A stretch of DNA of 64,000 nt from Nitrospirota bacterium. GTDB lineage: Bacteria > Nitrospirota > UBA9217. The first letter of the stretch is position 1, and every line of letters starts with the position of its first letter. The stretch spans positions 32,001 to 96,000 of the forward strand of contig CAVVUN010000006.1 of NCBI GenBank assembly GCA_963751455.1, written 5' to 3'. The position numbers were made by a program, and so were the translations under genes. The notes beneath the pieces are model-generated. The model was not told the DNA's origin and ran no database searches. It saw nothing but the letters and a program-made list of their open reading frames with translations. This document shows, piece by piece, positions 12,532 to 31,365 of this stretch.

Positions 12532-14129
12532 TCCCCTCAATCAAAGGGAAGCTCTCCTTTCGCTCCTCTGCCTTTTTCTGGTAACGGTTCTGGTAATAAC
12601 CGCTTCAGCCTGCCGAAGAACGGATGATGAACGGCTTTCCGGGTACCTGTACCTTCGCCTGAACGCCAATCCTACCAGCCTCGACCCCGCGCTGATCACG
12701 GATGTAATGGGCGGCGGCATCGCTGCAAAGCTCTTTAACGGATTGGTGCGCTTCAATGAAAATCTGGATATCGTGCCCGACCTCGCCGCGTCCTGGACCC
12801 TTTCCCATGACCAGTTGACCTACACTTTTCGGCTGAGGCCGGATGTCCGGTTCAATACGGGCAGGTATGTAACAGCCGGCGACTTCCGCTATTCGTTCCA
12901 ACGGGTACTGAACCCCGTAACAAAGGCCCCGCTCACCTGGGTTCTTGACAAGATCGAAGGATCGCGCGATTTTGCCACGCGTAAGACGCGCGCGGTCTCC
13001 GGCATCCGGACTCCGGACGATCATACCCTGGTACTGAAGCTTGAAAAACCGTTCGGCCCGTTCCTGTCGCTTCTCGCCATGACGACCGCATACGTGGTCC
13101 CGCACGAAGAGGTGGCGCGCCTTGGCCAGGACTTCGGCAACCACCCTGCCGGGACCGGACCTTATGTCGTGAGCGAATGGAAACATGGTCAGCATATTAT
13201 CATGAAGGCGCGCGAGGATTACTTCGAGGGCAAGGCCCCCTTGCGCGGCATCGTCTACCGTGTAATCCCTGAGGACCTTACCTCCGTCATGGAATTCGAG
13301 ACCGGCCGTCTGGACGTTCTCCTCATCCCTTCGTCCGAATACCGGCGATATACTACGGACCCGGCATGGCGCGACCTGGTATACGCCAAGACCTGGCCTG
13401 AACAGCTATTACCTGGGCTTAAATTGCATGCTGCCGCCGTTGAACGATGTCCGGGTTCGGCGCGCGGTCAACATGGCCATCGACCGGGACCGCATCTTGA
13501 ACACGCTCTTCGAAAAAAGGGGTGTACTTGCTCAGGGCCCCATTCCTCCGGGACTCTGGAAAAACATGTCTCCGACCTCGAAGGGGTATGCCTATGATCC
13601 CGATAAAGCAAAAGAGCTCATACGGCAGGCAGGCGCTGAAGGCGCGCGCATCAAGATCTACATTTCGGCGGACCCGGAGGTCCTGGATATCGTCGAGGTA
13701 ATACAGAACTACCTGGCGAAGGCGGGATTAAAAGCAGATATAATACAGCTGGACTGGAGCGCATTCAAGCACGCGGTCAACGAAGGAGAGCCGAACGCAT
13801 TCTGGCTTTCCTGGTGGGCCGATTATCCTGATCCGGAAAACTTTCTCCTCCCTCTATTCCATTCTGCAAGCGTCGGCTCTGCCGGGAACCGGACCCGCTG
13901 TCTCGATCCTGTCCTCGATAAACTGATCGAAACCGCCCAGAGAACCGTAGATGAACGCAAGCGCTACAGGCTTTACCGTGAGGCGGAGGACCGGATCATA
14001 GACAATGCGCCCTGGGTTTTCATGTGGCACCGGTCCGATAATTTTGTAGTTCAACCCTGGGTAAAGAACTTCAGGGTCTATTCGATCTACTCTATCGATA
14101 AAGGCGGAGACATAACGGTTACCCGCTAA
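12476..14129 (+). pseudogene. Peptide/nickel ABC substrate-binding lipoprotein (family 5), +1 frameshift near 13391
   Basis: ASAC lipobox, NPTSLDPA, GTGPY; frame 1 ends ...YAK then PGLNSYYLGLN continues in the next frame (TAC GCC AAG A CCT GGC CTG); start uncertain; could be a sequencing error. Confidence 0.75.
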
Positions 14130-14159: not shown

Positions 14160-14373
14160 ACCCCTCACCCTACCCCTCAAGGGAAAGGGTGTGCTTCATG
14201 ATCGAGAGAACTACGAGTGTCCTCCCCTTGTCAGCAGTTGGTATCCCGCAGGTTCATAAAGTCTTCTAGCGACCGAGCGAAGCAATCTCGATTTAATAAA
14301 ATCGCTAAATCTAGATCGCCGCGTCGGAAAAACCACTCCTCGCCATATCGAAAGTTTTTCAGAGTCTTGCTAG
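14160..14373. repeat. Degenerate REP/MITE-like fragments at the left island edge
   Basis: CCCTCACCC..AAGGG hairpin, GCGAAGCAATCTC motif, and TTTTTCAGAGTCTTGCTAG resembling the MITE end at 40754-40774. Confidence 0.4.
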
Positions 14374-17300
14374 TTTGCTAACTTCATCAGATACCATTTC
14401 TTCTCCCAGATCTTTATCAGCTCGCTAAGCTTCAATCGAATTGACGCCACATCCATCGACAGTTTTTTGATTTCATCAGTCGCTTTAATAATAAATTTTA
14501 GATTATCTTCAGCTTCCTTGCCGGTTGAGGCATTCGCGTTCACGCGATGCAGGGCGTCAATCGCTTCGTTTATCGTCTCGGCATCGCTCATGCTCGCCAT
14601 GGTGATATTTGTAAGATCTGTAATGACCCCTCTCAAAAGCTGGTCCGAACTGTTCAAGACGATCAGTGTTAGCGGATACCTTCCGTATGAAACAAATATA
14701 CCGTTATTGTCGTAGAACACTTCCGTTATGGCTGTATATTCACCGGCCCTATCCGGAAGGTTCAAGGCATAACCAAAGCGCGCGTTCTCATTGGAAGCAA
14801 TGGTTTTCTGCCACGCTATGGATCCTTCCATCGCTATTCCTTCCGGAACAATCGAATCGGCAGTTGTGTCTGCTGGCACCGTCTCAATGATCCTTACTGT
14901 CACCGGCTCTGAGGAATTTTTGACCCCAGTCTGTAGCGGAACGCTGTCCATAGCCCTGGCCGAATGCTCCAGCGGCCTAACATGATTTATACTGTTTACC
15001 ATAAGGGCTGCTGCTTGAGTCTGATCCGATGAGTTCAGCAAGTCGAACGTGTATAGTAACGACCTGCCCTTCCCATACTGATTCGATATGATCACCGGTA
15101 CCATCTGCTGCTTGTCCATCACCGTGCCATATGCCTGAGCCGTTTCCGCACTTATAGTCGCTACGATCGCTTTGCCCAATAGCTTAAGCTCCCCTTCATT
15201 GCTGATGAAGCTTGATTCAAGGTTAACCGCGAGATCGGGTCTCGTTGTCTTTCCGGTCAATTTCACGCCAAAAACGTCATCCAGGAAAGGATTTGCATCC
15301 TGACGGGTCTTCAGGAAAATAAGCCCGTCGCCGAAGTAAACCGCTTCACGGAGTTCTTCGCTTACAACCGGTTCCTTAACATCGATCAGTATGTACGTAT
15401 TGTACCTGCCGGAACGAAGACCAGAGGTAAAGTCATCCATGTTCCCGGCGATCATGTAATTCACGCGAAGTGACGCCAGGAGAGCATCCAGTTGCCGGAT
15501 GTCGGCTTGTTTCTGTTCCCTGTCGGATTTGTCGCTCCAAACCCCAACCAGGACAACGGGTTCCACGCCAATTGCCTTCTCTATATTATCTATGACGATG
15601 AGCCGTACGGTCAAAGATTTTTCTGCCTCTTCGTTCAAAACATTGTCTATGGATTTATAAGTTATAGTGTGAGTTCCTGAGGCAAGCTCCGTAAGACCGA
15701 AGCTTCCGGTATAGCCCTGCCACTCTCCTTCGTCGATACGGTACGTCGTGGTTCGAACGCCGGAAAGGTTGTCCGTTCCGTTCAGCGTAAACAGAGTCTT
15801 CGGTGAAACAATATTAACAATGCCGGGAGAGAGCGGGTCAGAGCCTGATAGCTCGGTTATTGCCTGCTCTTTGTCCAGATTAACGGCGTAAGAATTTTCA
15901 GTCTCTATATTTCCAATATTATCAACAGACCGGAAGGTAATAGTGCGGACCCCGTCCTGATAGGCCCCGAGTTCGACCGGACCGGTATATGTCTCGAAAG
16001 GGCCTTCGTCGACGCGGTATTCTGTTTTGGCTACGCCGGCAAAATCGTCGGTGGCATTTAACTCAATGTGTGTGCTCCCCGAAACGAAAACCTGTCCGTT
16101 CACCTCATATTTCGGAGTTCCAAGGGATAATACCGTTACCGGGGGCGTGGTATCCATCTGGACGGTGAAACCTACTGACAGGGGAATAGTAGTATGCCCT
16201 GCGGTGTCTGAGGCCTTAAAACCGACAGTATGGTTCCCGTTGTCCGCAAGCACTGGCTGCCATATAGCTTCATACCGGCCTGAGGCAGCAATAAGGGGCA
16301 GTGTGTTCCATGGGCCGTCGTCAACACGATATTCTACCGCGCCGATGCCTAATCCGCCGTCCAAAACAGCGGCAGAAATGCCGACTGCCGAATTGTATGT
16401 GCTGTTCTGCACAGGCGAGACGATGGTAACAACAGGCAGTGTATTGATTGGGAGCGAATTCTGGAAGATGTTTCCGCCGCTCTGGAAATATACGCCGTAG
16501 AAGAGCCTGTCTCGACTAAGCGTACCGAGCGGGACGTTAAACGTAGGGGTCGCCGGCTGCGAGGTCAGGGTAAACGTTTGCATATCATGGTGCGCTCCAT
16601 AGCGGATTATCGCAACATACGTGCCGTCCTCGAACTGGGTCTGTTTTTCAACGTTCATGGTCAAAACCGCGGTATCATCATTATAATAGATTTGCTTATC
16701 GAGTGATGCGGTCACGGCTACGTTCACGCCTGCTACGCTGAATCTGGTTTTTCCGGACGTGCCCTGCGAGGCAGCAGCAGCAAGGTTATAATCTACAAGA
16801 TAGTCGGTCGCCTGGGCGTCTTCCGGCACCGCGAAGTTAAATGCCAGGACCTTTTCTTCGCCCGGCTGCAGAACGTTCGACGCCATCTGGTTCAGGACAT
16901 CCATGGCCTTGACCGAGAAATCCGCGCTGCCGGCCAGCGTCCCGGTATTTTTAATTGTAAAATTCAATGTCGCCGCTTTGCCGACCGTAAAGATCGGGCT
17001 CGTCGGAATGGAAGTTATCTCGAAAATCGGGCCTGATACTCTGACCTGGGATTGATTGGTTGCAAGCAGGCTGCCCGAGGAAGTGTAAAGATTGACCTCT
17101 ACAGGATAGGCGCCTGAAATTATGCCCGCAGGATCTAAGTTGATTAGGTAATTCATTGAGTCGTGAGCTTCCAGGCCCGATACTGGCGTTTCGCCTCGCC
17201 AGACAGCCTTGCCGAAATTATCCATGACTGCGAGTGTGATCGTACCGTTCACAATGTTATACCCGTTATTCACGATGTTCATTGTGACCGGTATCAGCCC

Positions 17301-20300
17301 GGTCTTCTCCTGACTTCCGGAAGCCGTCGACATCGTGACGTCATTTTCCCTGGCTACAGTAAACGAGGACGACGCATAGGAATACGGCTGTGAACTTTCT
17401 GCATAGAGCCAGCATGTTCCTTGGATAACGTCAAAGGTGAGAGTATCCGTGAAGGTCTCCCCCTTTGCCAGGAAGTACGATTTTGTCAGACTGAGCACAG
17501 ATGGCTGAAGCGAGTAAGTCACGCTGATAGTTTCATCTATGGTGCCGGTGTTCGTTATAGTCACCGGAACCGTAATCTTCCCCTCGGGATACAAACCTGA
17601 TGGCGTCTGATTCCCCGACCCTATTGTGATCTGCGCTGCCTCTCCATATGTTACGATCTTAGATGCAGTCTGATATACGTCGCCAGTTACATAAACCCTA
17701 TATGTCATTGTCCGGTCAATCTGCTGGTTATATTGTAAAAGTCTCGTTTCACTCGCCGGTATAGTAAGTGAATCGGTATCGATTGCATCCCACGAGCTGT
17801 TGTAAACTGTATATTGTATGTTGATATCAATTCTTCCGGTATTCTTTAACTCTACGTTTAGATAAAAGGGCTTTCTGTCTGCAATATCGGGCCCCGAAAT
17901 AGACATGGTCGCCTTTGGATTAGCAATCTCATACTGATCAGTAATCTCGGCCAGGGTTGCGGTCTGGCTTACACTGCCAATAAGGAAGACGACACCCTCA
18001 AGTCCTGCTGTTGCTGTAGTAGTAAACGTGTGGGTCCCACTTGCTGGAACATTAATATTTTCAGTATGTATGGTTTGCAAACTTCCATCCGACTTCTGAG
18101 ACTTGATTATGAGTTTTAAATTGGTCGCGTTTATCGTTGTGATATTTTTCACTTCACCGGAAATCGTAACCGTTTCTCCCTGTCTGTAGATCTTTTTATC
18201 GGGAGCAAAGAAGAGGACGATGCCGCTGTTAACAATATAGAACGGATATCCCGATCTAGCAATAGTTTGTCCGAGATTGTTCTTCAAAGTAGTTTCAAGA
18301 TATAGTTTACCAAGAGTGTTTAGCGAGCCGATATTTATTGTATAATCATTGTTACTATTTGGCTCTTGATTAATTGGGATCGTTGTTTCAAAGATGGACT
18401 CTGAGCCGCCAATCGAAAAAGGAAGCATTCTTTGAATGCGATTATTGCCGCTGTCTATCGCGTATACGATACCTTCAGCGTTAACTCCTATCTCCGGAAC
18501 TGATTGGAATTGTCCGTCACCGCTGCCGCTGCTGCCCCATTTTGCTTTAAAATTACCATTACTATCAAATTTCTGGACTCGATTATTCAATGTTTCGCCT
18601 ATATATACAAATCCATTGGCGTCTACAGCTATACCACGAGGATAATAAAATTGCCCATTACCGTAGCCAGAACTTCCCCATTTGATAATAAAATTTCCAC
18701 TCGGATCGAACTTCTGGATGCGATAATTATCCGAATCTACAACGTACACAGACCCATCCGGCCCAACAGCCATATTTATTGGGAAATTAAACTGCCCATT
18801 GCCGGTTCCATAACTCCCCCACTTGGTAATAAAGCCGCCATTAGCGTTGAACTTCTGAATTCGATTAATTACAGTATCTGACACATAGATCGAACCGTTA
18901 GAATCAATAGCTATCCCGTTGGCAGACGCAAATTGACCATTGCCGTATCCGTAGCTGCCCCATTTATAAACGAATTGTCCATTCGCATTAAACTTTTGAA
19001 TTCGATTATTCCCGTGATCAACTACATACACATAGCCATCACGAGACACAGCTATACCGTAGGGATAAATAAATAGTCCATTCCCACTGCCATAGCTCCC
19101 CCACTTCGTTATGTAGTTTCCATCCCTATCGAACTTCTGGATGCGATGGTTGTAACTGTCCGCAACATAGATTGAGCCGTCAGATGCTACTGCTATCCCT
19201 TGCGGCCATTTAAACTGTCCATTACCGCTGCCCTGACTTGTGCCCGTCTCTGGAATAAACTGAGTGAATACTCCACCTGACGGCTGTTTATTCTTATAGA
19301 CCTTAATGTCCAGCGTTCCGTTTTCCACACCTCTAGAGCTATTCGCGAGTGTACTGATAGCGGTAATTGTATCTGTGCTCTGGTATGTTTGTTGGTCCGT
19401 CCTGGAAAGGAGACTTGTTACAAGACCCTCAACATTAAAAATTTTGTTGAGTTGTGCCAAGTTCCCTGTTTTCAGATCCTTTACTACAATATTGAGGAAT
19501 ACAATACCTCCTGCAGTCTGAGCCGGAATCGGGATGCTGGTGAGCACCTTTCTCTCTCCTGCAAGGATTTCGCCGGACACGGAACTCTGATAAAGCACTT
19601 CACCTTCGGTATCAGTAATAACTATTTTTTCCGTAGCATATGTCGTATCCACCGCTCCCTCATTTTCGACCCATACAGTTACGACATCGCCGGCAGCTAT
19701 TTGCGTTGCCACTGAGCTATCCACTATCAGATCGGATCCCTGCACGGCAAAACTTGTAAGAGCCGTTATGGAATCGCCTGATAATGAGGTTATAGTAACG
19801 TTGACTCCATGCCGGCCTGACGTAATAGTATCTGGGATCATGAAAGAAAATACTAATTCGCGAGTCGTGCTCGGCGACAGAGATACTGTCGTTGTTTGGG
19901 AATAACCTGTATCGGCAACAGCTAAAGTCACCGTCATTTCGTCCTGGCTGAACTTTCCCGTATTCATTAAATTCATCTTCAAGTTCGCCGTCTCTCTCAT
20001 CCGGTATGTGATCTTATCAAAAGAGAAAGAAGCAGCGGATGAATTTGGAATAGAGATGGTTGTGTGATTAATCGTCCCTGTTTCATCGGACTGAGTAAAA
20101 CTCAAAGTATAGTTCCCGAATTTGAGCATTGGAAGGGGCGTGGACGGAACAGTAATAGTCGTAGTCTGCCCGACTTCAATACTGAAGGTCCGGGTTCCGG
20201 TCGCGACTATAGCACCACTCGGATCGCTGAGGATCACGTTCAAAGTCCCGGATGTCACACCGATCCTACCGATATTGTTTACACCGAATGAAATAGCTGT

Positions 20301-21875
20301 AGAACCATTTGAAAGGGGCGTGGAGAAATTCGGCGTTACCGAAATGCGGCTTTTCAAAGGAGTAACGTTTATCGTGACTGTTGAAGGTTCACTGTCCGTG
20401 AAATAGTCATTAACGACGAGCTCAATGACATAAGTTCCCGCTTTATCGGGTGTAAAAGTCGGGCTAGCTCCGCCCGCATCAGTCAACGTTGCTATGCTGC
20501 TGTCATCAGGTTTGGACGCTATGCGCCAAGCATATTTGAGTGGATCTCCGTCTGGATCACTGCTTTCAAAACCATCCAAGGTGATCTCGTAACTCTGCTC
20601 GCCTGTTTGATTCGCGCCTGCATTGGCGACCGGGGCTTGATTGGTTTGTGATAGAGATGCATCACCCGTAGGAGAATACGTGATGCGGTAGGTTTCGGAA
20701 AGCGCGGGGGTGGCAATACCGTTTATGGAGGTTATGAGATTATCAGTGCCGTCTGATTTCGTCCATTGCATATCGATCGTGTACGGTCCTTCGCCTGTTC
20801 CAAATACCTTCATGATGAAATTGCCCTCAAGAGGTTTAACAATCGCAAGCTGTCTGTAAGGTTCATGAGTCTGTTCGATGCCAGCTAAATCACTTATGGG
20901 TTGATCCATATAGTAAAGAGCCATGGGATCTTCATGAAGCGTCAATCCTGTATCGGGGCTATAGCCCGTTCTTCTTCCTTTAGGGTCAATAATTTGGACT
21001 TCGATCGGGGAGTGAAGTGTGATTCTTCCATTGCTCACATCAAGGGTGCCGCTGGCATATACCCCCTGAAATCTAAGCAGTTTAATGAAGCTATAATTAT
21101 CTCGACCATTATAACGCGCATTAAAGCCTTCAGCATATTGGTAATATCTTCCAGGGTCATAATCCCTGTATTCGCCATTCAGCTTATCATAGCCGCCTAC
21201 AACGACAAAGTGAGTTGGATGAAATATCGGTATACCTTCGTCGACATATTCTGTATAAGATATCTGCATTATATCTGGTAAATAAGACTTAGTATCTTTC
21301 TCCAAGAGATCGTTGAACCTTGCCGGATCGGAATTTTTTTCTACCCAGAAGCAGCCAAAGTCCTTTCTCGAGCATCCAATATCACAACAATAGTTCGGGA
21401 CCACGTAATGATTTAGAGTTGGGAAAGGATACTTTTCGTAAAGTTTTCCTGTTGTGTTAATCCAATGGACAGCTGTGCCGTCATAAGTACTATTATCAAC
21501 CATCCAGGTATTAAGCGTACCTGGATCGAGTCTCGTGTCAAGTTTTGGCTGATGGTCGGCATCCGGTACAAATAATATGCTATTCCAATAGTACAACATC
21601 ATTAACGATGTGAGAGCACAGCCTTTTTGGCAAATTGTACCTGGTGAACAAACTTCTCTACCGTTACCCACATCAACCATGCATGGTGGTGTAAGCGTGC
21701 CTCTGCCGGCATAAGTGTTGCATTCCCATCTACTCGAGCTCTCCACCGAGCTACCTCCCAACTGCCAGAATGGGACGATATAATGATTGATATCTTCATC
21801 AGGAACCGCATGGGAAGTGGAAACAGTCAACACTAAAAGAAGGAAAACAACTATTGGGAGATGGCGCCTATACAT
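14370..21875 (-). CDS. Giant secreted protein: C39-like peptidase head, PKD, CARDB/Ig-like repeats, NHL propeller, Ig/chitobiase-like domains, C-terminal alpha/beta and helical region
   Basis: Signal peptide; Q38, GC86ALTS, TH222FVVVGGYD, YD240PG; HSPIEVQIIDPKGRRTG; NQAPVANAGANQ..LDG..SDPDGDPLKYAW (PKD); GNGQF..P.GIAV..DG.IYV.D..N.RIQKF repeats; DTTPPVT. Confidence 0.85.
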   Translation of the reverse strand: MYRRHLPIVVFLLLVLTVSTSHAVPDEDINHYIVPFWQLGGSSVESSSRWECNTYAGRGTLTPPCMVDVGNGREVCSPGTICQKGCALTSLMMLYYWNSILFVPDADHQPKLDTRLDPGTLNTWMVDNSTYDGTAVHWINTTGKLYEKYPFPTLNHYVVPNYCCDIGCSRKDFGCFWVEKNSDPARFNDLLEKDTKSYLPDIMQISYTEYVDEGIPIFHPTHFVVVGGYDKLNGEYRDYDPGRYYQYAEGFNARYNGRDNYSFIKLLRFQGVYASGTLDVSNGRITLHSPIEVQIIDPKGRRTGYSPDTGLTLHEDPMALYYMDQPISDLAGIEQTHEPYRQLAIVKPLEGNFIMKVFGTGEGPYTIDMQWTKSDGTDNLITSINGIATPALSETYRITYSPTGDASLSQTNQAPVANAGANQTGEQSYEITLDGFESSDPDGDPLKYAWRIASKPDDSSIATLTDAGGASPTFTPDKAGTYVIELVVNDYFTDSEPSTVTINVTPLKSRISVTPNFSTPLSNGSTAISFGVNNIGRIGVTSGTLNVILSDPSGAIVATGTRTFSIEVGQTTTITVPSTPLPMLKFGNYTLSFTQSDETGTINHTTISIPNSSAASFSFDKITYRMRETANLKMNLMNTGKFSQDEMTVTLAVADTGYSQTTTVSLSPSTTRELVFSFMIPDTITSGRHGVNVTITSLSGDSITALTSFAVQGSDLIVDSSVATQIAAGDVVTVWVENEGAVDTTYATEKIVITDTEGEVLYQSSVSGEILAGERKVLTSIPIPAQTAGGIVFLNIVVKDLKTGNLAQLNKIFNVEGLVTSLLSRTDQQTYQSTDTITAISTLANSSRGVENGTLDIKVYKNKQPSGGVFTQFIPETGTSQGSGNGQFKWPQGIAVASDGSIYVADSYNHRIQKFDRDGNYITKWGSYGSGNGLFIYPYGIAVSRDGYVYVVDHGNNRIQKFNANGQFVYKWGSYGYGNGQFASANGIAIDSNGSIYVSDTVINRIQKFNANGGFITKWGSYGTGNGQFNFPINMAVGPDGSVYVVDSDNYRIQKFDPSGNFIIKWGSSGYGNGQFYYPRGIAVDANGFVYIGETLNNRVQKFDSNGNFKAKWGSSGSGDGQFQSVPEIGVNAEGIVYAIDSGNNRIQRMLPFSIGGSESIFETTIPINQEPNSNNDYTINIGSLNTLGKLYLETTLKNNLGQTIARSGYPFYIVNSGIVLFFAPDKKIYRQGETVTISGEVKNITTINATNLKLIIKSQKSDGSLQTIHTENINVPASGTHTFTTTATAGLEGVVFLIGSVSQTATLAEITDQYEIANPKATMSISGPDIADRKPFYLNVELKNTGRIDINIQYTVYNSSWDAIDTDSLTIPASETRLLQYNQQIDRTMTYRVYVTGDVYQTASKIVTYGEAAQITIGSGNQTPSGLYPEGKITVPVTITNTGTIDETISVTYSLQPSVLSLTKSYFLAKGETFTDTLTFDVIQGTCWLYAESSQPYSYASSSFTVARENDVTMSTASGSQEKTGLIPVTMNIVNNGYNIVNGTITLAVMDNFGKAVWRGETPVSGLEAHDSMNYLINLDPAGIISGAYPVEVNLYTSSGSLLATNQSQVRVSGPIFEITSIPTSPIFTVGKAATLNFTIKNTGTLAGSADFSVKAMDVLNQMASNVLQPGEEKVLAFNFAVPEDAQATDYLVDYNLAAAASQGTSGKTRFSVAGVNVAVTASLDKQIYYNDDTAVLTMNVEKQTQFEDGTYVAIIRYGAHHDMQTFTLTSQPATPTFNVPLGTLSRDRLFYGVYFQSGGNIFQNSLPINTLPVVTIVSPVQNSTYNSAVGISAAVLDGGLGIGAVEYRVDDGPWNTLPLIAASGRYEAIWQPVLADNGNHTVGFKASDTAGHTTIPLSVGFTVQMDTTPPVTVLSLGTPKYEVNGQVFVSGSTHIELNATDDFAGVAKTEYRVDEGPFETYTGPVELGAYQDGVRTITFRSVDNIGNIETENSYAVNLDKEQAITELSGSDPLSPGIVNIVSPKTLFTLNGTDNLSGVRTTTYRIDEGEWQGYTGSFGLTELASGTHTITYKSIDNVLNEEAEKSLTVRLIVIDNIEKAIGVEPVVLVGVWSDKSDREQKQADIRQLDALLASLRVNYMIAGNMDDFTSGLRSGRYNTYILIDVKEPVVSEELREAVYFGDGLIFLKTRQDANPFLDDVFGVKLTGKTTRPDLAVNLESSFISNEGELKLLGKAIVATISAETAQAYGTVMDKQQMVPVIISNQYGKGRSLLYTFDLLNSSDQTQAAALMVNSINHVRPLEHSARAMDSVPLQTGVKNSSEPVTVRIIETVPADTTADSIVPEGIAMEGSIAWQKTIASNENARFGYALNLPDRAGEYTAITEVFYDNNGIFVSYGRYPLTLIVLNSSDQLLRGVITDLTNITMASMSDAETINEAIDALHRVNANASTGKEAEDNLKFIIKATDEIKKLSMDVASIRLKLSELIKIWEKKWYLMKLAN
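18430..19250 (-). repeat. About six intragenic NHL repeats (about 47 aa / 141 bp period)
   Basis: Repeated KWGS.G.GNGQF..P.GIAV...G.VYV.D..N.RIQKF. Confidence 0.85.
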
Positions 21876-21895
21876 TTGTTCCTCCTTGGGTGAGG

Positions 21896-23893
21896 TTATC
21901 TATTCTTAGGCTCACATTCAAAAACTTCGGAAACATGCCACGGATATTTACGCACAGGTTTTCTTATCCTCTTCCAGGTTTTTCCACCCTCGGTCGTAAT
22001 AAAAAACCATGCCTTCGTTGTGGGAATAACACCGCGGTCTTTATCAAGAAAAATGAGGTCATAGCCGATAACGCTCGGTTCTTCTTTCGTCCACGTGTTT
22101 CCACCATCTTCGGTAAACAAAAGCCAACCGAAGCCCTCTTCGCTTCTTCCAGTTACCCAACCGGTTTTATTATCCGTAAAAAAAATCCCATTTAGCCATG
22201 CATTGTCTTTCTTATGTTGAAGATTCCATTTTTTGCCGCCGTCCTCGGTATATAGAATAATTCCTGTCCATCCCGCAGCGCCTTCTATTGCTTTGGTGCC
22301 AATAATCCATCCAAATTTAGTATCTAAAAAATGAATATTTCTAAGAAAGTAGTCAGTGCTTCCACTTGCTTGATGTTCCCAACGCTTGCCGCCGTCCGTT
22401 GTGTGAAGAATCATTCCTTGATTACCGACAACCCATCCATTCTCTCGATCAATAAAAGAGACTTCAAATAATCCCGTTCTCAATCTATCGTGTCCCATTA
22501 ATTCTTTAAATTGCGTTGACCAGGTTTTTCCGCCATCGGCGGTATATTTGATTACGCCATAAACTTTATCGATTTCCTTCCGCTCGTTCCTTTCCTCTAT
22601 TGTCCCTACCGCCCAGCCTGTGGAAGAATCTGAGAAAAACAGGCCCCGCACCCATATTCCAACCTCTTGATTCTGTCGTGTGCGACCGCCATCGTCCGTT
22701 CGGCAGATATAGGTAGTGTAATCTCTGGGAGCGTAAATCCACCCTGTTTTTTTATCGACAAAAAAGACGGCAGAGCCGCATTCATCACGTCGTGCTGCCA
22801 TTTTCCATGTCTTACCGCCATCTTCAGTCTTCATGATTTGGCCGTCATCTCCAACGGCCCAGCCGAAAGAAGATCTCGGAAAGGAGATTCCATGTATTTG
22901 TACTAGAAAATCATCTATCCTTTTCGAGTGTTCCGGTAGGACTCCTAGTTTTTCCTTCCATGTTTTTCCTTCATCCGCTGTACAGAAGATGGTCGATCCC
23001 GCTGTACATCCACTTCTCTTGTCCATGAAGGATATTCGGTTGAGAGCATATGACGACCCAGCATGAAGCTGATCGACCCATGTCTTTCCTCCGTCTTTGC
23101 TATGGAAAATGGAGCCTAAACCGATTACAGCCCATCCATTTTTATCATCCGTAAAGAAGATACACCCCCTATCCCATTTGAGCGGAATTTCTGCTCTCCT
23201 CGAGTGACCAGGTGAACCAAAAAACGGTAGTTCAACCGGAAGCTTGCTCTCCTCCCACTTTTTGCCTCCATTTGTCGTCCTATACACTTCATCCCCGGCC
23301 AATAACCAGCCTGTCTGAGGATTAATAAAATATACGCTTGTAATGAGGCGGTTTATGCTGATGTTCACTGTCTCCCATTTTTTTCCTCCATCTATCGTGT
23401 GAAGCACAATCCCCTGAACCTTTATCTCATGTGAAGATTGTTTGCCATCTGCTCCTACCGCCCATCCTTCCTTTTCGTTTAAGAAAAAAAGACTCTTTAG
23501 GACTGCTTTAATCTCTGATTGTATGGCCCACGTCTTGCCGCCATCTCCCGTGTGTAAGATTATTCCTCGATTACCGACCGCCCAACCATTCTTTTCATTT
23601 ACAAAAGTAATATCGAGCAAGTCCTGCGCTATTCCACTTTCTTGCGCTGCCCATGTCTCGCCCGCATCTTCGGTAAAGAGAATGATACCCTGTTCCCCCG
23701 CAACCCAACCCTTCTTCGACGTAACAAATTTCACTCCAAGAAGATTATTTGATGTTGGATATGGATTCTGATATACCCAGCCGTTCCAGCTCCCGGCAAA
23801 GGATTGCATTGGGATAACGGTCAGGATTACGGTAATGGTAATAAGCATCGCAATCTTGTCTTTTTCCATAAATTTCATCATTTTATTTCCCAT
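21896..23893 (-). CDS. YCF48-like BNR/Asp-box beta-propeller protein, cassette B
   Basis: Signal peptide, many T.DGG.TW and GWAVG repeats; paralog of 27252-29207. Confidence 0.88.
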   Translation of the reverse strand: MGNKMMKFMEKDKIAMLITITVILTVIPMQSFAGSWNGWVYQNPYPTSNNLLGVKFVTSKKGWVAGEQGIILFTEDAGETWAAQESGIAQDLLDITFVNEKNGWAVGNRGIILHTGDGGKTWAIQSEIKAVLKSLFFLNEKEGWAVGADGKQSSHEIKVQGIVLHTIDGGKKWETVNISINRLITSVYFINPQTGWLLAGDEVYRTTNGGKKWEESKLPVELPFFGSPGHSRRAEIPLKWDRGCIFFTDDKNGWAVIGLGSIFHSKDGGKTWVDQLHAGSSYALNRISFMDKRSGCTAGSTIFCTADEGKTWKEKLGVLPEHSKRIDDFLVQIHGISFPRSSFGWAVGDDGQIMKTEDGGKTWKMAARRDECGSAVFFVDKKTGWIYAPRDYTTYICRTDDGGRTRQNQEVGIWVRGLFFSDSSTGWAVGTIEERNERKEIDKVYGVIKYTADGGKTWSTQFKELMGHDRLRTGLFEVSFIDRENGWVVGNQGMILHTTDGGKRWEHQASGSTDYFLRNIHFLDTKFGWIIGTKAIEGAAGWTGIILYTEDGGKKWNLQHKKDNAWLNGIFFTDNKTGWVTGRSEEGFGWLLFTEDGGNTWTKEEPSVIGYDLIFLDKDRGVIPTTKAWFFITTEGGKTWKRIRKPVRKYPWHVSEVFECEPKNR

Positions 23894-24134
23894 CTCCTTA
23901 AATCAAGAAAAAACTTTTTGTCTTCGGAGGAATGCCCGATTGCAATTCGTGGATAATTTGAAACATAACATTTCCTCCAAAACAGACCAAACAGTCAAAT
24001 CGATTTTATCGCTCTGCTTTTTTAAAAATTAAACGCGTGGTGAGGGGTTCCAAGGGATGTCGGCAAATCAGAATATTTGAAGCAGAAACCTCAAGTTGCT
24101 ATTGCATATTGTTACATAATATTATATGTTTGTC

Positions 24135-24176
24135 TCGGCTATTCTTGCTATTTTATTCGGCATTTCTTGCTGTCAA
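24135..24176 (-). promoter_or_regulatory. Tandem 14-bp direct repeat (period 22) next to a TTGACA hexamer, upstream of cassette B
   Basis: TCGGCTATTCTTGC (24135-24148) and TCGGCATTTCTTGC (24157-24170); same motif at 30894-30929. Confidence 0.6.
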
Positions 24177-24182
24177 TTTTTT

Positions 24183-25571
24183 GGTAGCGTTGTCAAGTGG
24201 AGACCTGACAAAAGCCCCCCATTTTACGCGCATTATGCATCAAATCCGTTATAGTAATAAGCCAGCCGGACTTTCATGACATTCAGCGCTCCGGCCTCGG
24301 TCCACTTGCTCACGTTTACCCGCATATTGACCGTGCGCATGAGTCGCTCCACCTTGCTCGTGGTCTTACCGTCTAATCTCTTCTTGATCGCCGTAAACAT
24401 ATCCGGGCGGGCATTTTCAAGATAAGCGGCTGTGTGAGTATATTCTCTCTCAGCGCACCGCTTTATCAGTTCATCCAGCCGGGCCTTCTTCGAAGCGATC
24501 ATCGCGGCTATCGTCTGCTTGTCGTCTACAAACGGCCGTATCGCGCAGATTTCCATCAGCTCCACGATCACATACAACCAGTCCTCGCTCTTACGCTTCA
24601 CTTTGTCCTGCCACAACACATACTTCGCTTGATAGGGAATATGCCACAAGCAGCGCTGAACAATTATCTTCACCTTCCCCTTAAGAGCATCCAGGATGGA
24701 GGTGTCGCCGTCGGTGATTAAGGAAAACGGACGGGTGAAGCTCCCCAGAGCCTTGAGACTCTTCTTGAAAAGGTTGTCCCAGGACCCGTTATAATTCCCG
24801 ATATCAAGGCCCGCCACCCGCACGCCGCCACCCTTCTTGTACTGTATGAACGCCTTCAATTCCTTCCCGCGCTTCTTGATTCCCTTGATGCCGATCCCGG
24901 TCCCGTCAGCCTCGCCCTGGGGAAGCTCCTTTTCATCAACCTTGAACTCTATTTCCGACCCCGTCTTTTGGACAGCGCTCCAGACCGTCATCTTGTCCAC
25001 GGCCCAGCCGAACATCTTGCCGATCTTCTCCGCCACACGAAAGGTTGTCAAGGAACCCAGAAGCCCAAGCTTTCGATAAATTTCTGCCGCTATTCGCTTT
25101 TTCGGCTTCATTCCGAGCAGCTTTCGGGTGATGTAGAGCTTACTCCCACAGCGTTTGCAAACAACCTGGAGCTGCTGTAACCAGACCCATTGGTAAAAGG
25201 CATGAATCTTAGTCTTTTTCCCGTGCCGCGTCTTCCATGTGAATTCCCGATCATTGCCGCACCCGCAGGCAAAAGGCTTTTTCTTAAGAGCCATCACATG
25301 CTCGCCAAAGCCTACAAGCACTTTCTGAATGAAGTCCGTCAAAATCTGCGGCAAAAGCTCGGCAAAGGCGGCGAGTATTGATGAAAGAGAGCTGTCCTTC
25401 AAATGCACTTCAAATTGACAATCAAAACTGATGGTGATACCTTTCCTTTGTGGGGTAACACCCATATTGCCCTCCTGTTTTATGGTTAGTTTCGTCCAAA
25501 ACTATTATCCATAAAATGGAGGGCAATTTGTTGTTACTTCATGTCCAAAGTCTCTCCTTTTCTACACTACC
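24183..25571 (-). mobile_element. ISH6-like insertion sequence, 1389 bp, with 8-bp target duplication AATTTTTT
   Basis: Imperfect terminal IRs GGTAGCGTTG.. / GGTAGTGTAG..; AATTTTTT at 24175-24182 and 25572-25579; single transposase ORF. Confidence 0.88.
24233..25465 (-). CDS. DDE transposase (ISH6/UPF0236-like)
   Basis: EADGTG, LITDGD, QRCLWH, TTSKVERLMRTVN; RBS lies in hairpin 25466-25527. Confidence 0.85.
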   Translation of the reverse strand: MGVTPQRKGITISFDCQFEVHLKDSSLSSILAAFAELLPQILTDFIQKVLVGFGEHVMALKKKPFACGCGNDREFTWKTRHGKKTKIHAFYQWVWLQQLQVVCKRCGSKLYITRKLLGMKPKKRIAAEIYRKLGLLGSLTTFRVAEKIGKMFGWAVDKMTVWSAVQKTGSEIEFKVDEKELPQGEADGTGIGIKGIKKRGKELKAFIQYKKGGGVRVAGLDIGNYNGSWDNLFKKSLKALGSFTRPFSLITDGDTSILDALKGKVKIIVQRCLWHIPYQAKYVLWQDKVKRKSEDWLYVIVELMEICAIRPFVDDKQTIAAMIASKKARLDELIKRCAEREYTHTAAYLENARPDMFTAIKKRLDGKTTSKVERLMRTVNMRVNVSKWTEAGALNVMKVRLAYYYNGFDA

Positions 25572-25577
25572 AATTTT

Positions 25578-27135
25578 TTAAGCATGAATCGTGACTGTTG
25601 AAGTTTCACTGTCCGTGAAATAGTCATTGACGACGAGCTGCAGGACATACGTTCCGGCTTTATCAGGCGTAAAAGTCGGCATGACCGCGGTCGCATCAGA
25701 TAGCATCGCTATGCTGTCATCAGGTTTTGTCACCATGCGCCATGCATATTTAAGCGGATCGCCGTCCGGATCATTGCTTGCAGTACCATCGAGGGTAATC
25801 TCATAACTCTGCTCGCCGGTTTGATTTGTGCCTGCATTCGCGATTGGCGCTTGATTGGTTTGTGAGAGGGATGCATCGCCGGTAGGAGAATATGTGATGC
25901 GGTAGCTTTCAAGCAAGGTTGGCGTTGCGGTTCCCGTTATGGAAGTATTGAGATTCTCCGTACCGTCATCTTTTATTCCCTGCATGTCGATCGTGTATGG
26001 CCCGTCACCTGTGCCAAAAATTTTGAGGATATAATTACCTGCAATAGGCTTGACAATATTTAGTATCTTTACAGGCTCCTCAGGAACATCGTCACCGTCC
26101 AGAGAACTCGGTGGTTCCTCAGAAAAATAGAGAGACAACGGATTTTCCTGCAATTTTAAGCCTGTCTCGGGATCATACCCTGTTCTTCTATTCATCGGAT
26201 CAATGATCTGAATTTCAACGGGTGAATGCACGCTGATCCGGAATTCGCTATTCAGATCTGATCTACTGTAGACACCGATATACCTGTATAGTTGCACGAA
26301 AGCAAGATTAGTGTAATACCCTCCTAAAGGCTGTGGAGGTTCAAAATTAGGATTCGGGTTTGTTCGGCCTGGATCGTAAGCGCTATAGCGACCAAGTTCA
26401 GTGCCAGCAAACGTCGAGTCATACCCCGCCACAAGAACAAAATGCACAGGATGATCTCCTCCACCAATGTCGCGCCCTGATATTTTCACAATATCTGGAC
26501 GCCCATGAGAGAGATCCAAGTCCAAGAGGTCCTGGGCTGATGGAAGGCTCCGCGATGAATCGTTCCATCTTGGAATATAGCAGTCGTAATTTTCTGATGC
26601 AAAATGCGGCACCGGGGAGTCATAACATTTCAAGTTGCGCTTAACAAGCGTTTTCCAGTCAGGCCAGGGCCAACCGTCGTAGTAATATTTTGATACTGCG
26701 TCGTCCCAGACCAAGGTTTTTGCTCGAGTTATAGCTTCTATTATCTGTTAACCAAGCATTAAGCGTTCCCGGGTTGAGAGATGAATATAGATAATCTAAA
26801 TAGGGATATTGAGGGTCATCAAAAAAATCGGGCAAATGATTCTGGTTCGGAATCCATTTCATTTCATAATATCTATAGAGCATTGCGAGGGCCGTCGTGG
26901 TACAGCCTGAGCGTGACATCGTGCCAGGGGTACTTTTAGTGCAATTTTCAATTCTTCCATGACCTGGATCGGCAAAAATATCACACTGCCATCCGCCGCT
27001 AAATTGTGTCCACCAGCGCGTATAGAGTTCAAGTTTTCCACCTGACGGCACTGATGGTACGGCGTGTGCCGTGGATGCTGCCAAAACAAAGAGGATCATT
27101 ATCGCAAGGTGCATCGAATATCGTTTCATCAGCAT
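25578..27135 (-). pseudogene. Orphan C39-like peptidase head + PKD domain, cassette A; +1 frameshift near 26717, ends right after PKD
   Basis: Signal peptide, SGCTTTALAML, LNPGTLNAW, HFVLVAGYD, YDPG, HSPVEIQIIDP, PKD, ending TVTIHA*; collinear with the first about 505 aa of the 2501-aa protein. Confidence 0.85.
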
Positions 27136-27251
27136 ATCACACCCCCTGGGGAATATCATGAGCAGCAGCAATCCCTTTCCTCTTGGACTATCTAAAATTG
27201 GAATAGCATTCCAGCTTAGAATAGTTCCATTCTTTTTTGCCCTATTGAAAG

Positions 27252-29207
27252 TTATTTCTTTTTCTCAAATAAATCCGAAAAATGCCATGGGTATTTGGAT
27301 AAAATCCTTCTTGGCTTCTTCCATGTGACTCCTCGGTCTTCTGTAATTGCGGGCCACCCCTTCTCCGAGATAAGCACACCCCGACTGTCATTAAAAGCAG
27401 GATAAATCATACCGACTTGTCCCAAATCTGTCTCCGTCCATGTTTTCCCACCATCTGTTGTATGGAAAACCATGCTGACCTCACCCCATTCAGTCGCACC
27501 TGTTGCCCATCCGTTATTGTTATCGTTGAAGGCCACATTATGTAATCCCACACCTCTCGCAGTATATTGAGCTTCCCAGTGGATTCCTCCGTCCGTTGTA
27601 TGAAGAACAACGCCTGACCACTCCCCCTCACGCGATTTTATTCCCGCTATCCAGCCCGTTTTCGAATCGATAAACTGCACAGCTCTTAATTGCGATATAG
27701 GATCGTCACTTTTCTGAAGTTCCCAGTGTTCGCCGCCGTCAACGGTATGAATAATTGTGCCTCTCTGCCCTACGACCCAACCGATTCGATCATTTAAAAA
27801 AAACAAATTAAAAAAACCGCCTTGAAATCGAAAATTCTCGGAGCCACCCATAAATTTTTTAAATTGCGTTTTCCACGTCTTTCCGCCATCTTTCGTCTGC
27901 CTTATAATCCCCCATCCTTTTGTCACCGCACCTGAATTTTCCTCGATCTCTCCAGCTGCCCAGCCTAATGTTTTATTAACAAAGAAAACACCAAAAACAC
28001 TTAATCCCGTTTCCTGTCTTTGGAAAGAGTGACCACCGTCATCTGTTCTGCAAATATAAGCTGACCATAAGCCGTGAACCCATCCCGTATTTTTATCAAT
28101 AAAAAAAGAATTTCTTCCGCAGTCGTTAGTTCGCGCGGCCATTTGCCAAGTTTTTCCGCCGTCTTCGGTCTTCCTGATTTGGCCGTTTATTCCGACAGTC
28201 CAGCCAGATTTATTTACGAAAGAAATACCATGTAATTCCAGATAATTGATATCATTAATTTTCACGGATAGTTTTGTTAATCGTTCTTTCCATGTCTTCC
28301 CGCTATCTTCGGTACAAACTATATTCGATCCTGTTGCGCAGCCGTTTTTATCATCGCTAAAGGAGATGTGCCTCAGATCATAAGCCATCACTTTAACGGG
28401 GAATCGATTGGTCCAGGTCTTTCCTCCGTCATTGGTAAAATAAATCGGAGAGAAACCCGTTACAACCCACCCCTTTTTCTCGTTGAAAAAATATAATTCT
28501 CCCCAACTCCATTCGGGCGGCACGAGTTCAAACGAACCTGTTCCAAAACGCCCGTGCGCAGGCAGCCTTAAATCAAGTCTGGCTTCGTCCCATTTTTTTC
28601 CTCCGTCCACAGTTCGGTAAACCCGGTCACCTGCAAGCAACCACCCTACTTGAGAACTGATAAAGTAGACGCTCGCAATAGAACGCCTGGTGTCGATGAC
28701 TTGCCTTTCCCATTTCTTTCCTCCATCCGTTGTGTGAAGCAATATGCCTTCATTTCCCACGATCCAGCCTTCCTTGTCATTTAGAAAGAAAAGGCCGTTA
28801 AGCGGTAAATTGAAATCGCCGTCTTGTTGGATCCAGGTCTTACCACCATCATTGGTATGAATGATGACTCCCTTCACTCTTGTCGCGCTCTCTCCGCCTA
28901 CAGCCCATCCTTGACGTTCATTGACAAAGAAAAGGCTTTTGATAATCCGCTCAGTTCCGCTCTCCTGGTGTTCCCACGTGTCGCCGCCGTCTTCAGTGTA
29001 CAGAATCGTCCCCTGCTCTCCGGCTATCCAGCCCTTCTTCGGGGTAACAAACTTGACTGCATAGAGATTGTTCGACGTGGGATACGGGTCCTGATAGATC
29101 CAGCCGTTCCAGCTCCCGGCATCCGATACAGTAGGAATGAATCCAAGAAAAAGGGCTGCGACGATCAGGGTCGACAATGCATTATTGGTCTTTATAAACT
29201 TATTCAT
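27252..29207 (-). CDS. YCF48-like BNR/Asp-box beta-propeller protein, cassette A
   Basis: Same repeats as cassette B; shared AGSWNGW.YQ.PYPTSNNL start and KYPWH.S..FE end. Confidence 0.88.
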   Translation of the reverse strand: MNKFIKTNNALSTLIVAALFLGFIPTVSDAGSWNGWIYQDPYPTSNNLYAVKFVTPKKGWIAGEQGTILYTEDGGDTWEHQESGTERIIKSLFFVNERQGWAVGGESATRVKGVIIHTNDGGKTWIQQDGDFNLPLNGLFFLNDKEGWIVGNEGILLHTTDGGKKWERQVIDTRRSIASVYFISSQVGWLLAGDRVYRTVDGGKKWDEARLDLRLPAHGRFGTGSFELVPPEWSWGELYFFNEKKGWVVTGFSPIYFTNDGGKTWTNRFPVKVMAYDLRHISFSDDKNGCATGSNIVCTEDSGKTWKERLTKLSVKINDINYLELHGISFVNKSGWTVGINGQIRKTEDGGKTWQMAARTNDCGRNSFFIDKNTGWVHGLWSAYICRTDDGGHSFQRQETGLSVFGVFFVNKTLGWAAGEIEENSGAVTKGWGIIRQTKDGGKTWKTQFKKFMGGSENFRFQGGFFNLFFLNDRIGWVVGQRGTIIHTVDGGEHWELQKSDDPISQLRAVQFIDSKTGWIAGIKSREGEWSGVVLHTTDGGIHWEAQYTARGVGLHNVAFNDNNNGWATGATEWGEVSMVFHTTDGGKTWTETDLGQVGMIYPAFNDSRGVLISEKGWPAITEDRGVTWKKPRRILSKYPWHFSDLFEKKK

Positions 29208-31009: not shown

Positions 31010-31330
31010 GTCGTGGAGGTGATTCAAAAATACCCGGCAAACGGCCGGATTACAGGCTGAAATAGTGCAATTGGACTGGAGCGCGTTCAAACACGCGATC
31101 AATGAAGGAGAGCCGAACGCATTCTGGCTTTCCTTGTGGGCCGATTACCCGGACCCTGAAAACTTCTTTTTTCCTCTTTTTCATTCTGCAAGCGCAGGAC
31201 CAGCCGGAAACCGGATTCGCTGTTTTGATCCGGTCCTCGATAAACTGATCGAAACGGCCCAGCGGACGATGGACGACCGGAAGCGCTACAAGCTCTATCG
31301 AGAGGCGGAGACATAACGGTCGTCCGCTGA
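31010..31330 (+). pseudogene. Relic duplicate of the 3' end of the ABC substrate-binding gene (13689-14129)
   Basis: QLDWSAFKHAINEGEPNAFWLS..DYPDPENF..RYKLYREAE; internal deletion between two AGGCGGAG octamers (13981 and 14102 in the long copy). Confidence 0.85.
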
Positions 31331-31365
31331 CAGTCTTCCAAACTCTTTATTACACACTGCTATTT

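What the first reader, a model, noticed from the sequence alone, without database searches (positions are those of the whole stretch)
14370..29207. Candidate N-terminal 'head-swap' polymorphic system: paired YCF48 + C39-peptidase cassettes feeding one giant stalk
Seen: two collinear units on the minus strand, A (27252-29207 + 25578-27135) and B (21896-23893 + 14370-21875). The peptidase heads are strongly diverged apart from catalytic motifs. The following HSP(I/V)E...PKD region is conserved at DNA level (20371-21014 vs 25588-26228), and unit A stops precisely at the end of that PKD domain (TVTIHA*). Inference: this mirrors Rhs/CDI orphan modules but at the N-terminus. Recombination between the two PKD blocks would delete about 5.2 kb and place head A, with its own upstream YCF48 partner, on the 2000-aa stalk. 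Alternatively B invaded and displaced A. I know of no described system with this layout.
Basis: partly seen in the sequence, partly recalled or inferred. Interest (0 to 1): 0.85.

Follow-up and report, generated by a model that had tools for sequence, protein, structure and literature searches.

The report
Mirror-image polymorphic toxin, swappable front heads
This bacterium carries giant proteins whose front enzyme domain and the gene just before it vary together between genomes, with leftovers of other such pairs lying upstream; they are likely secreted toxin-plus-immunity weapons against other bacteria, built back to front compared with the textbook ones.

Summary
Both units are real. The partners are double BNR propellers, not true Ycf48. 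A plain decayed duplication is rejected: head A and its partner group with other lineages, while only A's PKD shares recent ancestry with B. Across homologs, head and stalk trees conflict (AU p≤1e-4 in two tests) and head and partner trees share 4 of 5 splits. The same stalk carries M23, Amidase_6 or phospholipase-like heads elsewhere. The layout 'old partner + head remnant, then new partner + full giant' recurs at a second locus of this genome (M23 head, 108-nt exact tract) and in metagenome locus L045. Best reading: an N-terminal mirror of Rhs/T6SS cassette displacement in Sec-exported giant proteins, with B as the invader. A ready-to-swap silent cassette is unlikely (79% identity, 24-nt longest match).

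The parts
29358..30695 (-). U: 445-aa protein with a signal-like N-terminus and no family; third partner-like gene of the array
   Evidence: No Pfam or NCBIfam hit. Homologs sit beside this YCF48-like subfamily in G277 (65%), L050 (C-terminal part, 51%) and G174 (N-terminal part, 49%)
27252..29207 (-). YA: intact double BNR beta-propeller with signal-like N-terminus; partner of head A (putative orphan immunity)
   Evidence: groups with the L048/L049 partners as head A groups with the L048/L049 heads
25578..27135 (-). Orphan head A: signal peptide, C39-like peptidase, HSP domain, PKD, stop; one-base frameshift near 26715
   Evidence: mosaic ancestry
25588..26057 (-). A copy of the late-HSP/PKD block (78.7% to B's copy)
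24183..25571 (-). ISH6-like insertion sequence (transposase 24233-25465) with 8-bp target duplication; later passenger
   Evidence: NF041731 E 2e-56, below the curated cut-off
21896..23893 (-). YB: double BNR beta-propeller; cognate partner of head B (putative immunity)
21036..21875 (-). B signal peptide and C39-like papain-fold head (Q38, C86, H222, D240)
20367..21020 (-). B HSP domain (20646-21020) and PKD (20367-20645): conserved linker, inferred crossover zone
14370..20360 (-). B stalk: Ig/CARDB/MG-like domains, NHL propeller (18426-19238), Big_7/OmpL47 repeats (15576-16445), C-terminal domain ending WEKKWYLMKLAN
   Evidence: residues 507-1808 shared with the C1 M23 giant, 1811-2498 with the C4 7038-aa giant
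13690..13988 (+). 3' part of the ABC solute-binding protein gene; left boundary repeat of the 17-kb block
31011..31333 (+). Decayed 81% copy of the same 3' part with an internal deletion; right boundary repeat

Best explanation
The locus encodes a giant modular protein with a variable N-terminal C39-like peptidase head and an upstream beta-propeller partner that varies with it, likely a Sec-exported antibacterial toxin with its immunity protein, and unit A is likely the previous partner-plus-head cassette left upstream when cassette B came in. Shown: head and partner are inherited together and independently of the stalk; unrelated enzyme heads sit on the same stalk; partner-plus-head remnants lie upstream of complete cassettes at three loci. 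Inferred, step by step: (1) the signal peptide sends both proteins out of the cytoplasm; (2) the stalk holds the head away from the cell or releases it; (3) the head cuts an envelope target of a neighbouring cell, most likely peptidoglycan stem peptides, because sister heads are M23 and Amidase_6; (4) the partner inhibits the cognate head in the producer's periplasm; (5) a foreign partner-plus-head fragment anchors by homology in the late-HSP/PKD linker and joins illegitimately on its other side, which duplicates the linker and leaves the old partner intact and the old head to decay. This is the mirror image of Rhs/T6SS C-terminal displacement. Occasional gene conversion between orphan and active heads follows.
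For: Head vs proximal stalk trees (10 taxa) reject each other, AU p<1e-50 both ways. Head vs distal stalk (10 taxa, partly different) AU p about 1e-4. Mantel C39~HSP r=0.67, p=0.001; C39~stalk r=-0.16 and -0.10. Head vs partner trees (8 taxa) share 4 of 5 splits, chance 0.001. A BNR partner lies directly upstream in 5 of 7 metagenome loci with upstream sequence and in G293. A/B share 52 of 72 identical codons in PKD (hand sums; 33-55% against 8 other loci) but 21 of 51 in the early HSP, as expected if the linker was duplicated or converted in place. Second array in this genome, C1: lipoprotein, M23 head stub (cut near residue 187, frameshifted, 108-nt exact tract), lipoprotein, M23 giant. L045: BNR gene, head stub of the L050 class (48% over 47 aa; its BNR gene is 63-65% to L050's), new partner, giant. 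L050: extra BNR gene, 93% identical to the cognate one in the N-half and 63% in the C-half. L042 and L050 share a site (purC 84%) but their heads are 28% identical. Other heads on the stalk: M23 (E 4.5e-13), Amidase_6 (E 2e-12), phospholipase-C-like (motif reading, Atlas lead only). Fold neighbours include the T6SS effector BtaeB (Z 10.0, rmsd 3.5, 147 aligned), PeiR (Z 9.3, 3.7, 137) and the CDI C39 toxin 8ssm (Z 8.7, 3.0, 124).
Against: No functional evidence of toxicity, substrate or inhibition. The fold list is generic papain: SpeB (Z 10.8), interpain and PCAT leader peptidases tie with or beat the toxins. C39 alone vs partner is not significant (Mantel r=0.31, p=0.07), and AU weakly rejects the one differing split (p=0.03 and 0.007). 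Neighbouring genes share trees by linkage alone, and the three proteins that drive the head/stalk conflict (P0010, P0012, P0013) have no known partner. Pairing is not strict: the G293 head (50% to L045) has a BNR partner while L045 and L046 have another family. The stalk is not strongly conserved (median 57% and 43%, against 31% for C39). 4 of 7 informative C39 loci are single cassettes. Headless members exist (P0050, G239). The distal-stalk tree does not place B's stalk with A's relatives (low support). Zhang et al. 2012 read N-terminal peptidases as auto-processing enzymes (PMC3482391, passages). How the protein crosses the outer membrane and reaches a target wall is unknown.
Confidence: 0.6

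Rival explanations
1. Same cassette exchange, but no warfare: the giants are surface exoenzymes or adhesins. The C39 head processes its own protein or scavenges polymers, and the upstream propeller is a folding, anchoring or substrate-binding accessory.
For: C39 domains near the N-terminus of Omnitrophota giants were proposed to self-cleave (10.1101/2023.11.21.568195, passages). Closest folds include general proteases and leader peptidases. The partner's best fold hits are GH74 xyloglucanases and Ycf48. Headless stalks exist.
Against: M23, Amidase_6 and PLC-like heads in the same slot are not auto-processing enzymes. Each head class has its own upstream family. Partners are kept intact and duplicated after the head is lost (C1, L045, L050, and G277 with no head beside it), which an accessory role does not predict.
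Confidence: 0.2
2. One reading: A is a silent reserve head that PKD-to-PKD recombination places on the stalk as a switch within the population.
For: A is nearly complete, keeps all catalytic residues and ends at a domain boundary. Identity peaks at the PKD 3' end (87%). A 108-nt exact tract at C1 shows orphan-active exchange does occur in this genome. The frameshift may be an assembly error (about 14%).
Against: 79% identity and a 24-nt longest match, dS 1.31 over HSP+PKD, against 95% over 522 bp in the tested Rhs case (PMC3967940). The other orphans stop before the linker or carry stops, so they cannot be swapped whole. Such a deletion would also remove YB.
Confidence: 0.1
3. A is not an orphan but a working short, diffusible form (signal, C39, HSP, PKD) expressed beside the giant form.
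For: G293 has a stand-alone 602-aa form with its BNR partner. dN/dS is about 0.16 between A and B over HSP+PKD. The end at a domain boundary pre-dates the IS.
Against: The frameshift, if real. dN/dS between old paralogs mostly records past selection. Other upstream heads are cut at scattered points (about residue 42, 187 and mid-PKD), which fits random junctions. This reading is compatible with the toxin function and differs only on A's present state.
Confidence: 0.08
4. Simple tandem duplication of one cassette followed by decay of the first copy.
For: Collinear units; A truncated and frameshifted, with an IS behind it. A block duplication with a truncated first giant exists on contig C4.
Against: Head A groups with L048/L049 (support 92-98) and YA likewise (87), while B groups with P0010, so A and B are not sister copies. 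Ancestry changes within the gene.
Confidence: 0.02

Closest known systems
Rhs/CDI polymorphic toxins with orphan CT-immunity modules (Zhang 2012 PMC3482391; Koskiniemi 2014 PMC3967940; passages read)
   Same: Large carrier, variable enzyme domain behind a conserved junction, adjacent partner gene, orphan modules in tandem; Tox-PLC39 is a listed toxin class.
   Different: Here the variable enzyme is N-terminal, and the partner and orphans lie upstream. [quoted passage not shown] No RHS or filamentous-haemagglutinin repeats; orphan homology is 79%, not 95%.
Sequential displacement of T6SS effector-immunity modules in Vibrio cholerae (Kirchberger 2017 PMC5361080; passages read)
   Same: A new module anchors by homology, the old immunity gene is kept, effector remnants are left, arrays grow.
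   Different: Mirror polarity; signal-peptide proteins; no T6SS sheath gene VipB found in this genome.
Xanthomonas/Stenotrophomonas T4SS effectors with XVIPCD (PMC6759196) and WHIX T6SS effectors (PMC12135965); passages read
   Same: N-terminal envelope-attacking domains (peptidoglycan hydrolases, proteases, phospholipases) with an upstream periplasmic immunity gene.
   Different: Those are injected effectors defined by XVIPCD or WHIX. These are 2,500-3,900-aa signal-peptide proteins on Ig/NHL stalks with variable C-termini and upstream orphan heads. No XVIPCD or WHIX domain was reported by the Pfam scans; I did not search for them specifically.
Omnitrophota giant proteins (West-Roberts 2023, 10.1101/2023.11.21.568195; 10.64898/2026.06.07.730766; passages read)
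   Same: Very large proteins with a C39 domain near the N-terminal signal peptide, proposed to attack prey envelopes.
   Different: Those are far longer and mostly multi-TM. The passages seen mention no cognate partner gene or head exchange ('immunity' occurs once, in a citation, and 0 times).
C39-like toxins and lysins of solved structure: BtaeB (9jdd), StbD/CdiA-CT (8ssm; 10.64898/2026.05.07.723447, abstract), PeiR (8z4h; PMC6189367, search listing)
   Same: Same papain/C39 fold, Z 8.7-10.0.
   Different: 11-15% identity. Their targets differ from each other (topoisomerases, pseudomurein), so the fold does not fix the substrate.

Membership tests
Peptidase C39-like (PF13529), papain fold | Papain fold with Cys-His-Asp/Asn and Gln | tested here: met
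   Model pLDDT 86.6; Z 10.3 to 3erv; Cys in 13 of 13, His in 14 of 14, Asp in 10 and Asn in 4 of 14
Peptidase C39-like (PF13529), papain fold | Score over the Pfam cut-off | tested here: inconclusive
   No hit for the window heads. 6 of 8 homolog heads hit, 1 at the cut-off. Atlas 0.96 to PF13529 clusters
Ycf48 photosystem II assembly factor | Single propeller of about 330 aa scoring over the equivalog cut-off | tested here: not met
   About 630 aa, double-propeller-sized; 179 and 197 bits against 326
GH74 xyloglucanase | Two catalytic aspartates in the inter-propeller cleft | not tested
   Fold similarity only (TM 0.35-0.49, 10-14% identity); no sequence hit to GH74 at E 1e-5
Polymorphic toxin systems (Rhs/CDI type) | Variable domain exchanged on a conserved carrier | tested here: met
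Polymorphic toxin systems (Rhs/CDI type) | Toxin domain C-terminal, immunity gene downstream | tested here: not met
   Head N-terminal, partner upstream in all loci seen
Polymorphic toxin systems (Rhs/CDI type) | Orphan modules and extra immunity genes in arrays | tested here: met
   Window, C1, L045, L050; remnant in G174
Polymorphic toxin systems (Rhs/CDI type) | Toxicity neutralised by the cognate partner | not testable with these tools
T6SS effector-immunity modules | T6SS machinery in the genome, no signal peptide on the effector | tested here: not met
   VipB 0 matches in G000, 100% complete (one marker only); effectors carry signal-like N-termini (sequence reading)
X-T4SS (XVIPCD) or WHIX effectors | XVIPCD or WHIX secretion domain | not tested
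   Not reported in Pfam or NCBIfam scans; no dedicated search
ISH6 insertion sequence | ISH6 transposase, terminal inverted repeats, target duplication | tested here: inconclusive
   191 bits against a 240 cut-off; inverted ends and 8-bp duplications at 8 of 8 copies

The most novel reading that the evidence does not exclude
An undescribed class of polymorphic toxin systems with inverted polarity: Sec-exported giant Ig/NHL-stalked proteins carry interchangeable N-terminal envelope-lytic warheads (C39-like, M23, Amidase_6, phospholipase-like). Each has a cognate upstream immunity gene, here a double BNR propeller that would be a new protease-inhibitor family. They renew themselves by N-terminal displacement, leaving upstream arrays of old immunity genes and orphan heads that still donate sequence to the active head.
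Probability: 0.5. Interest if true: 0.82.

Novelty: new variant of a known kind. Interest (0 to 1): 0.72.

Why it matters
Surveys of polymorphic toxins look for a variable C-terminus and a downstream immunity gene, and read N-terminal peptidases as processing enzymes, so this family would be missed by design. If right, it shows that displacement-and-orphan evolution also runs in mirror image, and it gives a function to many unannotated 'YCF48-like' and NHL/PKD giant genes in environmental genomes. It also supplies testable new lytic enzymes with matching inhibitors: two cognate and two cross pairs (A/B heads by YA/YB) lie in one window.

Tried and rejected
Read mapping: one public run held 5% of the words; its 5 laid pieces covered the IS and two 19-20-nt bits, so neither the junction nor the frameshift could be tested, and no RNA holder was listed. 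IS-mediated truncation of A: rejected, clean 8-bp duplication. 60 sampled relatives: no head homolog, only PKD/HSP hits. GTDB pattern scan: 6 of 30 stretches confirmed, all distant (25-36%); I read 2 of the 6 and neither had the partner. Phylum searches of 401 genomes: head profile 7 (only G293 complete, G174 remnant), partner subfamily 2, stalk 6, each count including G000, so the family is rare and patchy in those searched. Foldseek on the two-domain head: no match at E 0.001; the HSP domain's fold was barely tested. PDB sequence search: only weak C39 hits, the top rows were kelch-like chance matches. Promoter and terminator scans: at shuffle level. Distal-stalk tree to test whether B's stalk was A's: unresolved. 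The representative search used a profile that unintentionally included the stalk, so it sampled stalk relatives rather than distant heads. Complex prediction of head B with YB was not available, so there is no verdict on binding. The cluster look-up for names and accessions could not be made, so no tool named the taxon; Nitrospirota is my untested guess and was used only as a search term. Earlier-findings look-ups returned nothing. No paper on BtaeB's activity was found (one mention in PMC13402684). Supplements were not consulted.


Full report
Observation. The minus strand carries, in reading order, U (29358-30695), YA (27252-29207), head A (25578-27135), an insertion sequence, YB (21896-23893) and giant B (14370-21875). 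YA and YB are 48% identical. A and B align over B residues 1-504 (31% over 1-134, 52% over 138-504) and A stops at the end of PKD. A is split by a one-base frameshift near 26715. With 53 frameshift sites in 554 kb of paralog-covered sequence (an upper bound on errors since true pseudogenes are included), one in 1.55 kb has about a 14% chance, and the neighbouring ABC solute-binding gene is also split. An ISH6-like element with 8 near-identical copies fills 24183-25571; its 8-bp target duplication overlaps A's stop codon, so A already ended there. The 17-kb block is bracketed by the 3' part of the solute-binding gene and an 81% decayed copy of it, as expected of an integrated block (inference).

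The head. Pfam and NCBIfam do not recognise it, but 6 of 8 homolog heads hit PF13529 weakly and the Atlas gives PF13529 clusters at 0.96. The model (pLDDT 86.6) matches papain-fold enzymes at Z 8-11: streptopain 10.8, 3erv 10.3, the T6SS effector BtaeB 10.0, PeiR 9.3 and the CDI toxin 8ssm 8.7. Q38, C86, H222 and D240 of B are kept in A. Cys is present in 13 of 13 heads that cover it, His in 14 of 14, Asp in 10 and Asn in 4 of 14. The fold shows a cysteine peptidase, not its substrate. The partner is about twice the size of Ycf48, scores 179-197 bits against a 326 cut-off, and its best fold hits are double-propeller GH74 enzymes and Ycf48 at 10-20% identity.

Homologs and pairing. A metagenome scan confirmed 9 of 253 candidate stretches. 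Two begin inside the gene. Of the other 7, 5 have the BNR gene directly upstream (L042, L044, L048, L049, L050), and 2 with a related head subtype (L045, L046) have a different 402-418-aa gene. G293 has a BNR gene before a stand-alone 602-aa form. Median pairwise identity is 31% for C39, 53% HSP, 68% PKD, and 57% and 43% for two stalk segments (the 57% includes G293's unrelated tail). The head is therefore the most variable part, but the stalk is not invariant. L042 and L050 share flanking genes (purC 84%) yet their heads are 28% identical.

Exchange. The head (24-410) and proximal stalk (506-860) trees of 10 proteins reject each other at AU p<1e-50. A second set with the distal stalk gives p about 1e-4, with a supported conflict: P0010 goes with B by head and with L049 by stalk. 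C39 identity tracks HSP (r=0.67, p=0.001) but not PKD or stalk (0.02, -0.16, -0.10), placing the breakpoint near the HSP/PKD border. Head and partner trees of 8 pairs share 4 of 5 splits (chance 0.001). Against this, C39 alone versus partner is not significant (p=0.07), the differing split is weakly rejected (p=0.03, 0.007), and linkage alone can give congruence. Head A and YA both group with L048/L049, and head B with P0010, so A is not a duplicate of B. Yet A and B share 52 of 72 identical codons in PKD against 33-55% with 8 other loci, and only 21 of 51 in the early HSP (hand sums). The linker was thus duplicated or converted in place. The exchange is old: dS is 1.31 over HSP+PKD and the longest exact match is 24 nt.

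Other heads. Of 165 proteins screened, 31 passed my filter for head, stalk or C-terminal similarity. Besides C39 forms and fragments lacking the N-terminus, the stalk carries M23 (contig C1 of this genome, E 4.5e-13; P0072 by motif only), Amidase_6 (P0053, E 2e-12) and phospholipase-C-like heads (P0029, P0058, P0059, G064; my motif reading plus a low-recognition Atlas lead). P0050 and G239 are headless. These forms have a different module of about 520 aa in place of HSP-PKD, opened by a recurring C..G.DHPDD motif, so a second exchange boundary lies near B residue 506. C-termini also vary (FG-GAP, OmpL47, the WEKKW domain).

Orphans recur. Contig C1 reads lipoprotein (452 aa), M23 head stub, lipoprotein (432 aa), M23 giant. 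The stub is frameshifted, cut near residue 187 and ends 14 bp before the next gene. It holds a 96-100% tract (108 nt exact) between 64% and 80% flanks, and the two lipoproteins are 80-90% identical at the front and 16-36% at the back. L045 reads BNR gene, a stub with signal peptide and first residues of an L050-class head (48% over 47 aa), new partner, giant; its BNR gene is likewise closest to L050's. L050 has an extra BNR gene and two further secreted-looking genes, with no head remnant found. G174 has a decayed HSP-PKD remnant before a gene that starts like the BNR gene, and G277 has U plus BNR with no head. Of 7 C39 loci with at least 1.5 kb upstream of the cognate partner (window, L042, L044, L045, L046, L050, G293), 3 have extra partners and 2 have head remnants; 4 are single.

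Mechanism. The pattern fits displacement: an incoming partner-plus-head fragment anchors in the conserved linker, its other end joins at a variable point in the resident gene, the old partner survives and the old head decays. This mirrors the model of Kirchberger et al. (PMC5361080, passages). That B's stalk was once A's is predicted but not resolved by the tree. The antibacterial role is inferred from the head classes and from the retention of partners after head loss. Signal peptides are read from the sequence. No T6SS VipB was found and 5 secretins are present; the outer-membrane route is unknown. A standing swap reserve is unlikely given 79% identity against 95% over 522 bp for the tested Rhs orphan (PMC3967940, passages), though the C1 tract shows orphans still donate patches.

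Comparison. Classical polymorphic toxins have C-terminal toxins, and Zhang et al. say so for peptidases (PMC3482391, passages); this locus fails that feature but works like them in exchange and arrays. N-terminal toxins with upstream immunity are known from XVIPCD and WHIX effectors (PMC6759196, PMC12135965, passages). Omnitrophota giants have N-proximal C39 domains (passages). Ten literature searches found no description of upstream orphan-head arrays on Sec-exported giants; the library lacks most subscription papers. Verdict: new variant of a known kind, with exchange well supported and function inferred. Interest 0.72.

Noticed in passing
G000:C1:664046-678487 (L001:4046-18487): Second array in the same genome: two lipoproteins, an M23 head stub with a conversion tract, and an M23 giant of about 3,750 aa (one frameshift) sharing B's stalk.
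   Followed up: yes
G000:C4:29890-72616 (L002-L004): Duplicated block (78% over 4.5 kb): large proteins ending in a phosphodiesterase/alkaline-phosphatase-fold domain, each followed by 1-2 paralogous secreted genes of about 295 aa (a classical C-terminal toxin-immunity look). Then a 507-aa truncated copy and a full 7038-aa giant with an HExxH motif that shares B's C-terminal 690 aa (63%).
   Followed up: partly
G000:C15:1523845-1538423 (L005): A further, fragmented giant ending in the same WEKKWYLM domain, with a transposase-like ORF inside the C-terminal part.
   Followed up: no
L083:6800-11120 (G240:C5): 1130-aa transglutaminase-like protein with a weak C-terminal CHAP hit, followed by a propeller gene, upstream of a stalk-family giant; resembles the C4 layout with another C-terminal domain.
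   Followed up: no
window 14373-15545: C-terminal domain of about 390 aa ending [WF]E[KR][KR]W, shared by giants with different heads; candidate export or anchoring domain with no Pfam hit.
   Followed up: no
L063:1399-3640 (G174) and P0001: Both HSP-PKD remnants stop in mid-PKD with a similar short tail; the G174 remnant is cut by a transposase-like insertion and followed by a chimera of the BNR gene's start and a U domain. P0001 may be another orphan head.
   Followed up: partly
window 24183-25571: ISH6-like element with 8 near-identical copies, A/T-rich 8-bp targets, below the NCBIfam cut-off; probably recently active.
   Followed up: partly
window 12404-14129: The ABC solute-binding protein gene is split by a frameshift near 13500-13600; assembly error or real.
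   Followed up: no
window 36930-40310: 1126-aa fusion of molybdopterin oxidoreductase domains with a class-V aminotransferase.
   Followed up: no
L065:7901-10832 (G254): A distant 605-aa HSP-domain protein is followed by a 301-aa paralog of its N-terminal part and then a transposase-like ORF.
   Followed up: no
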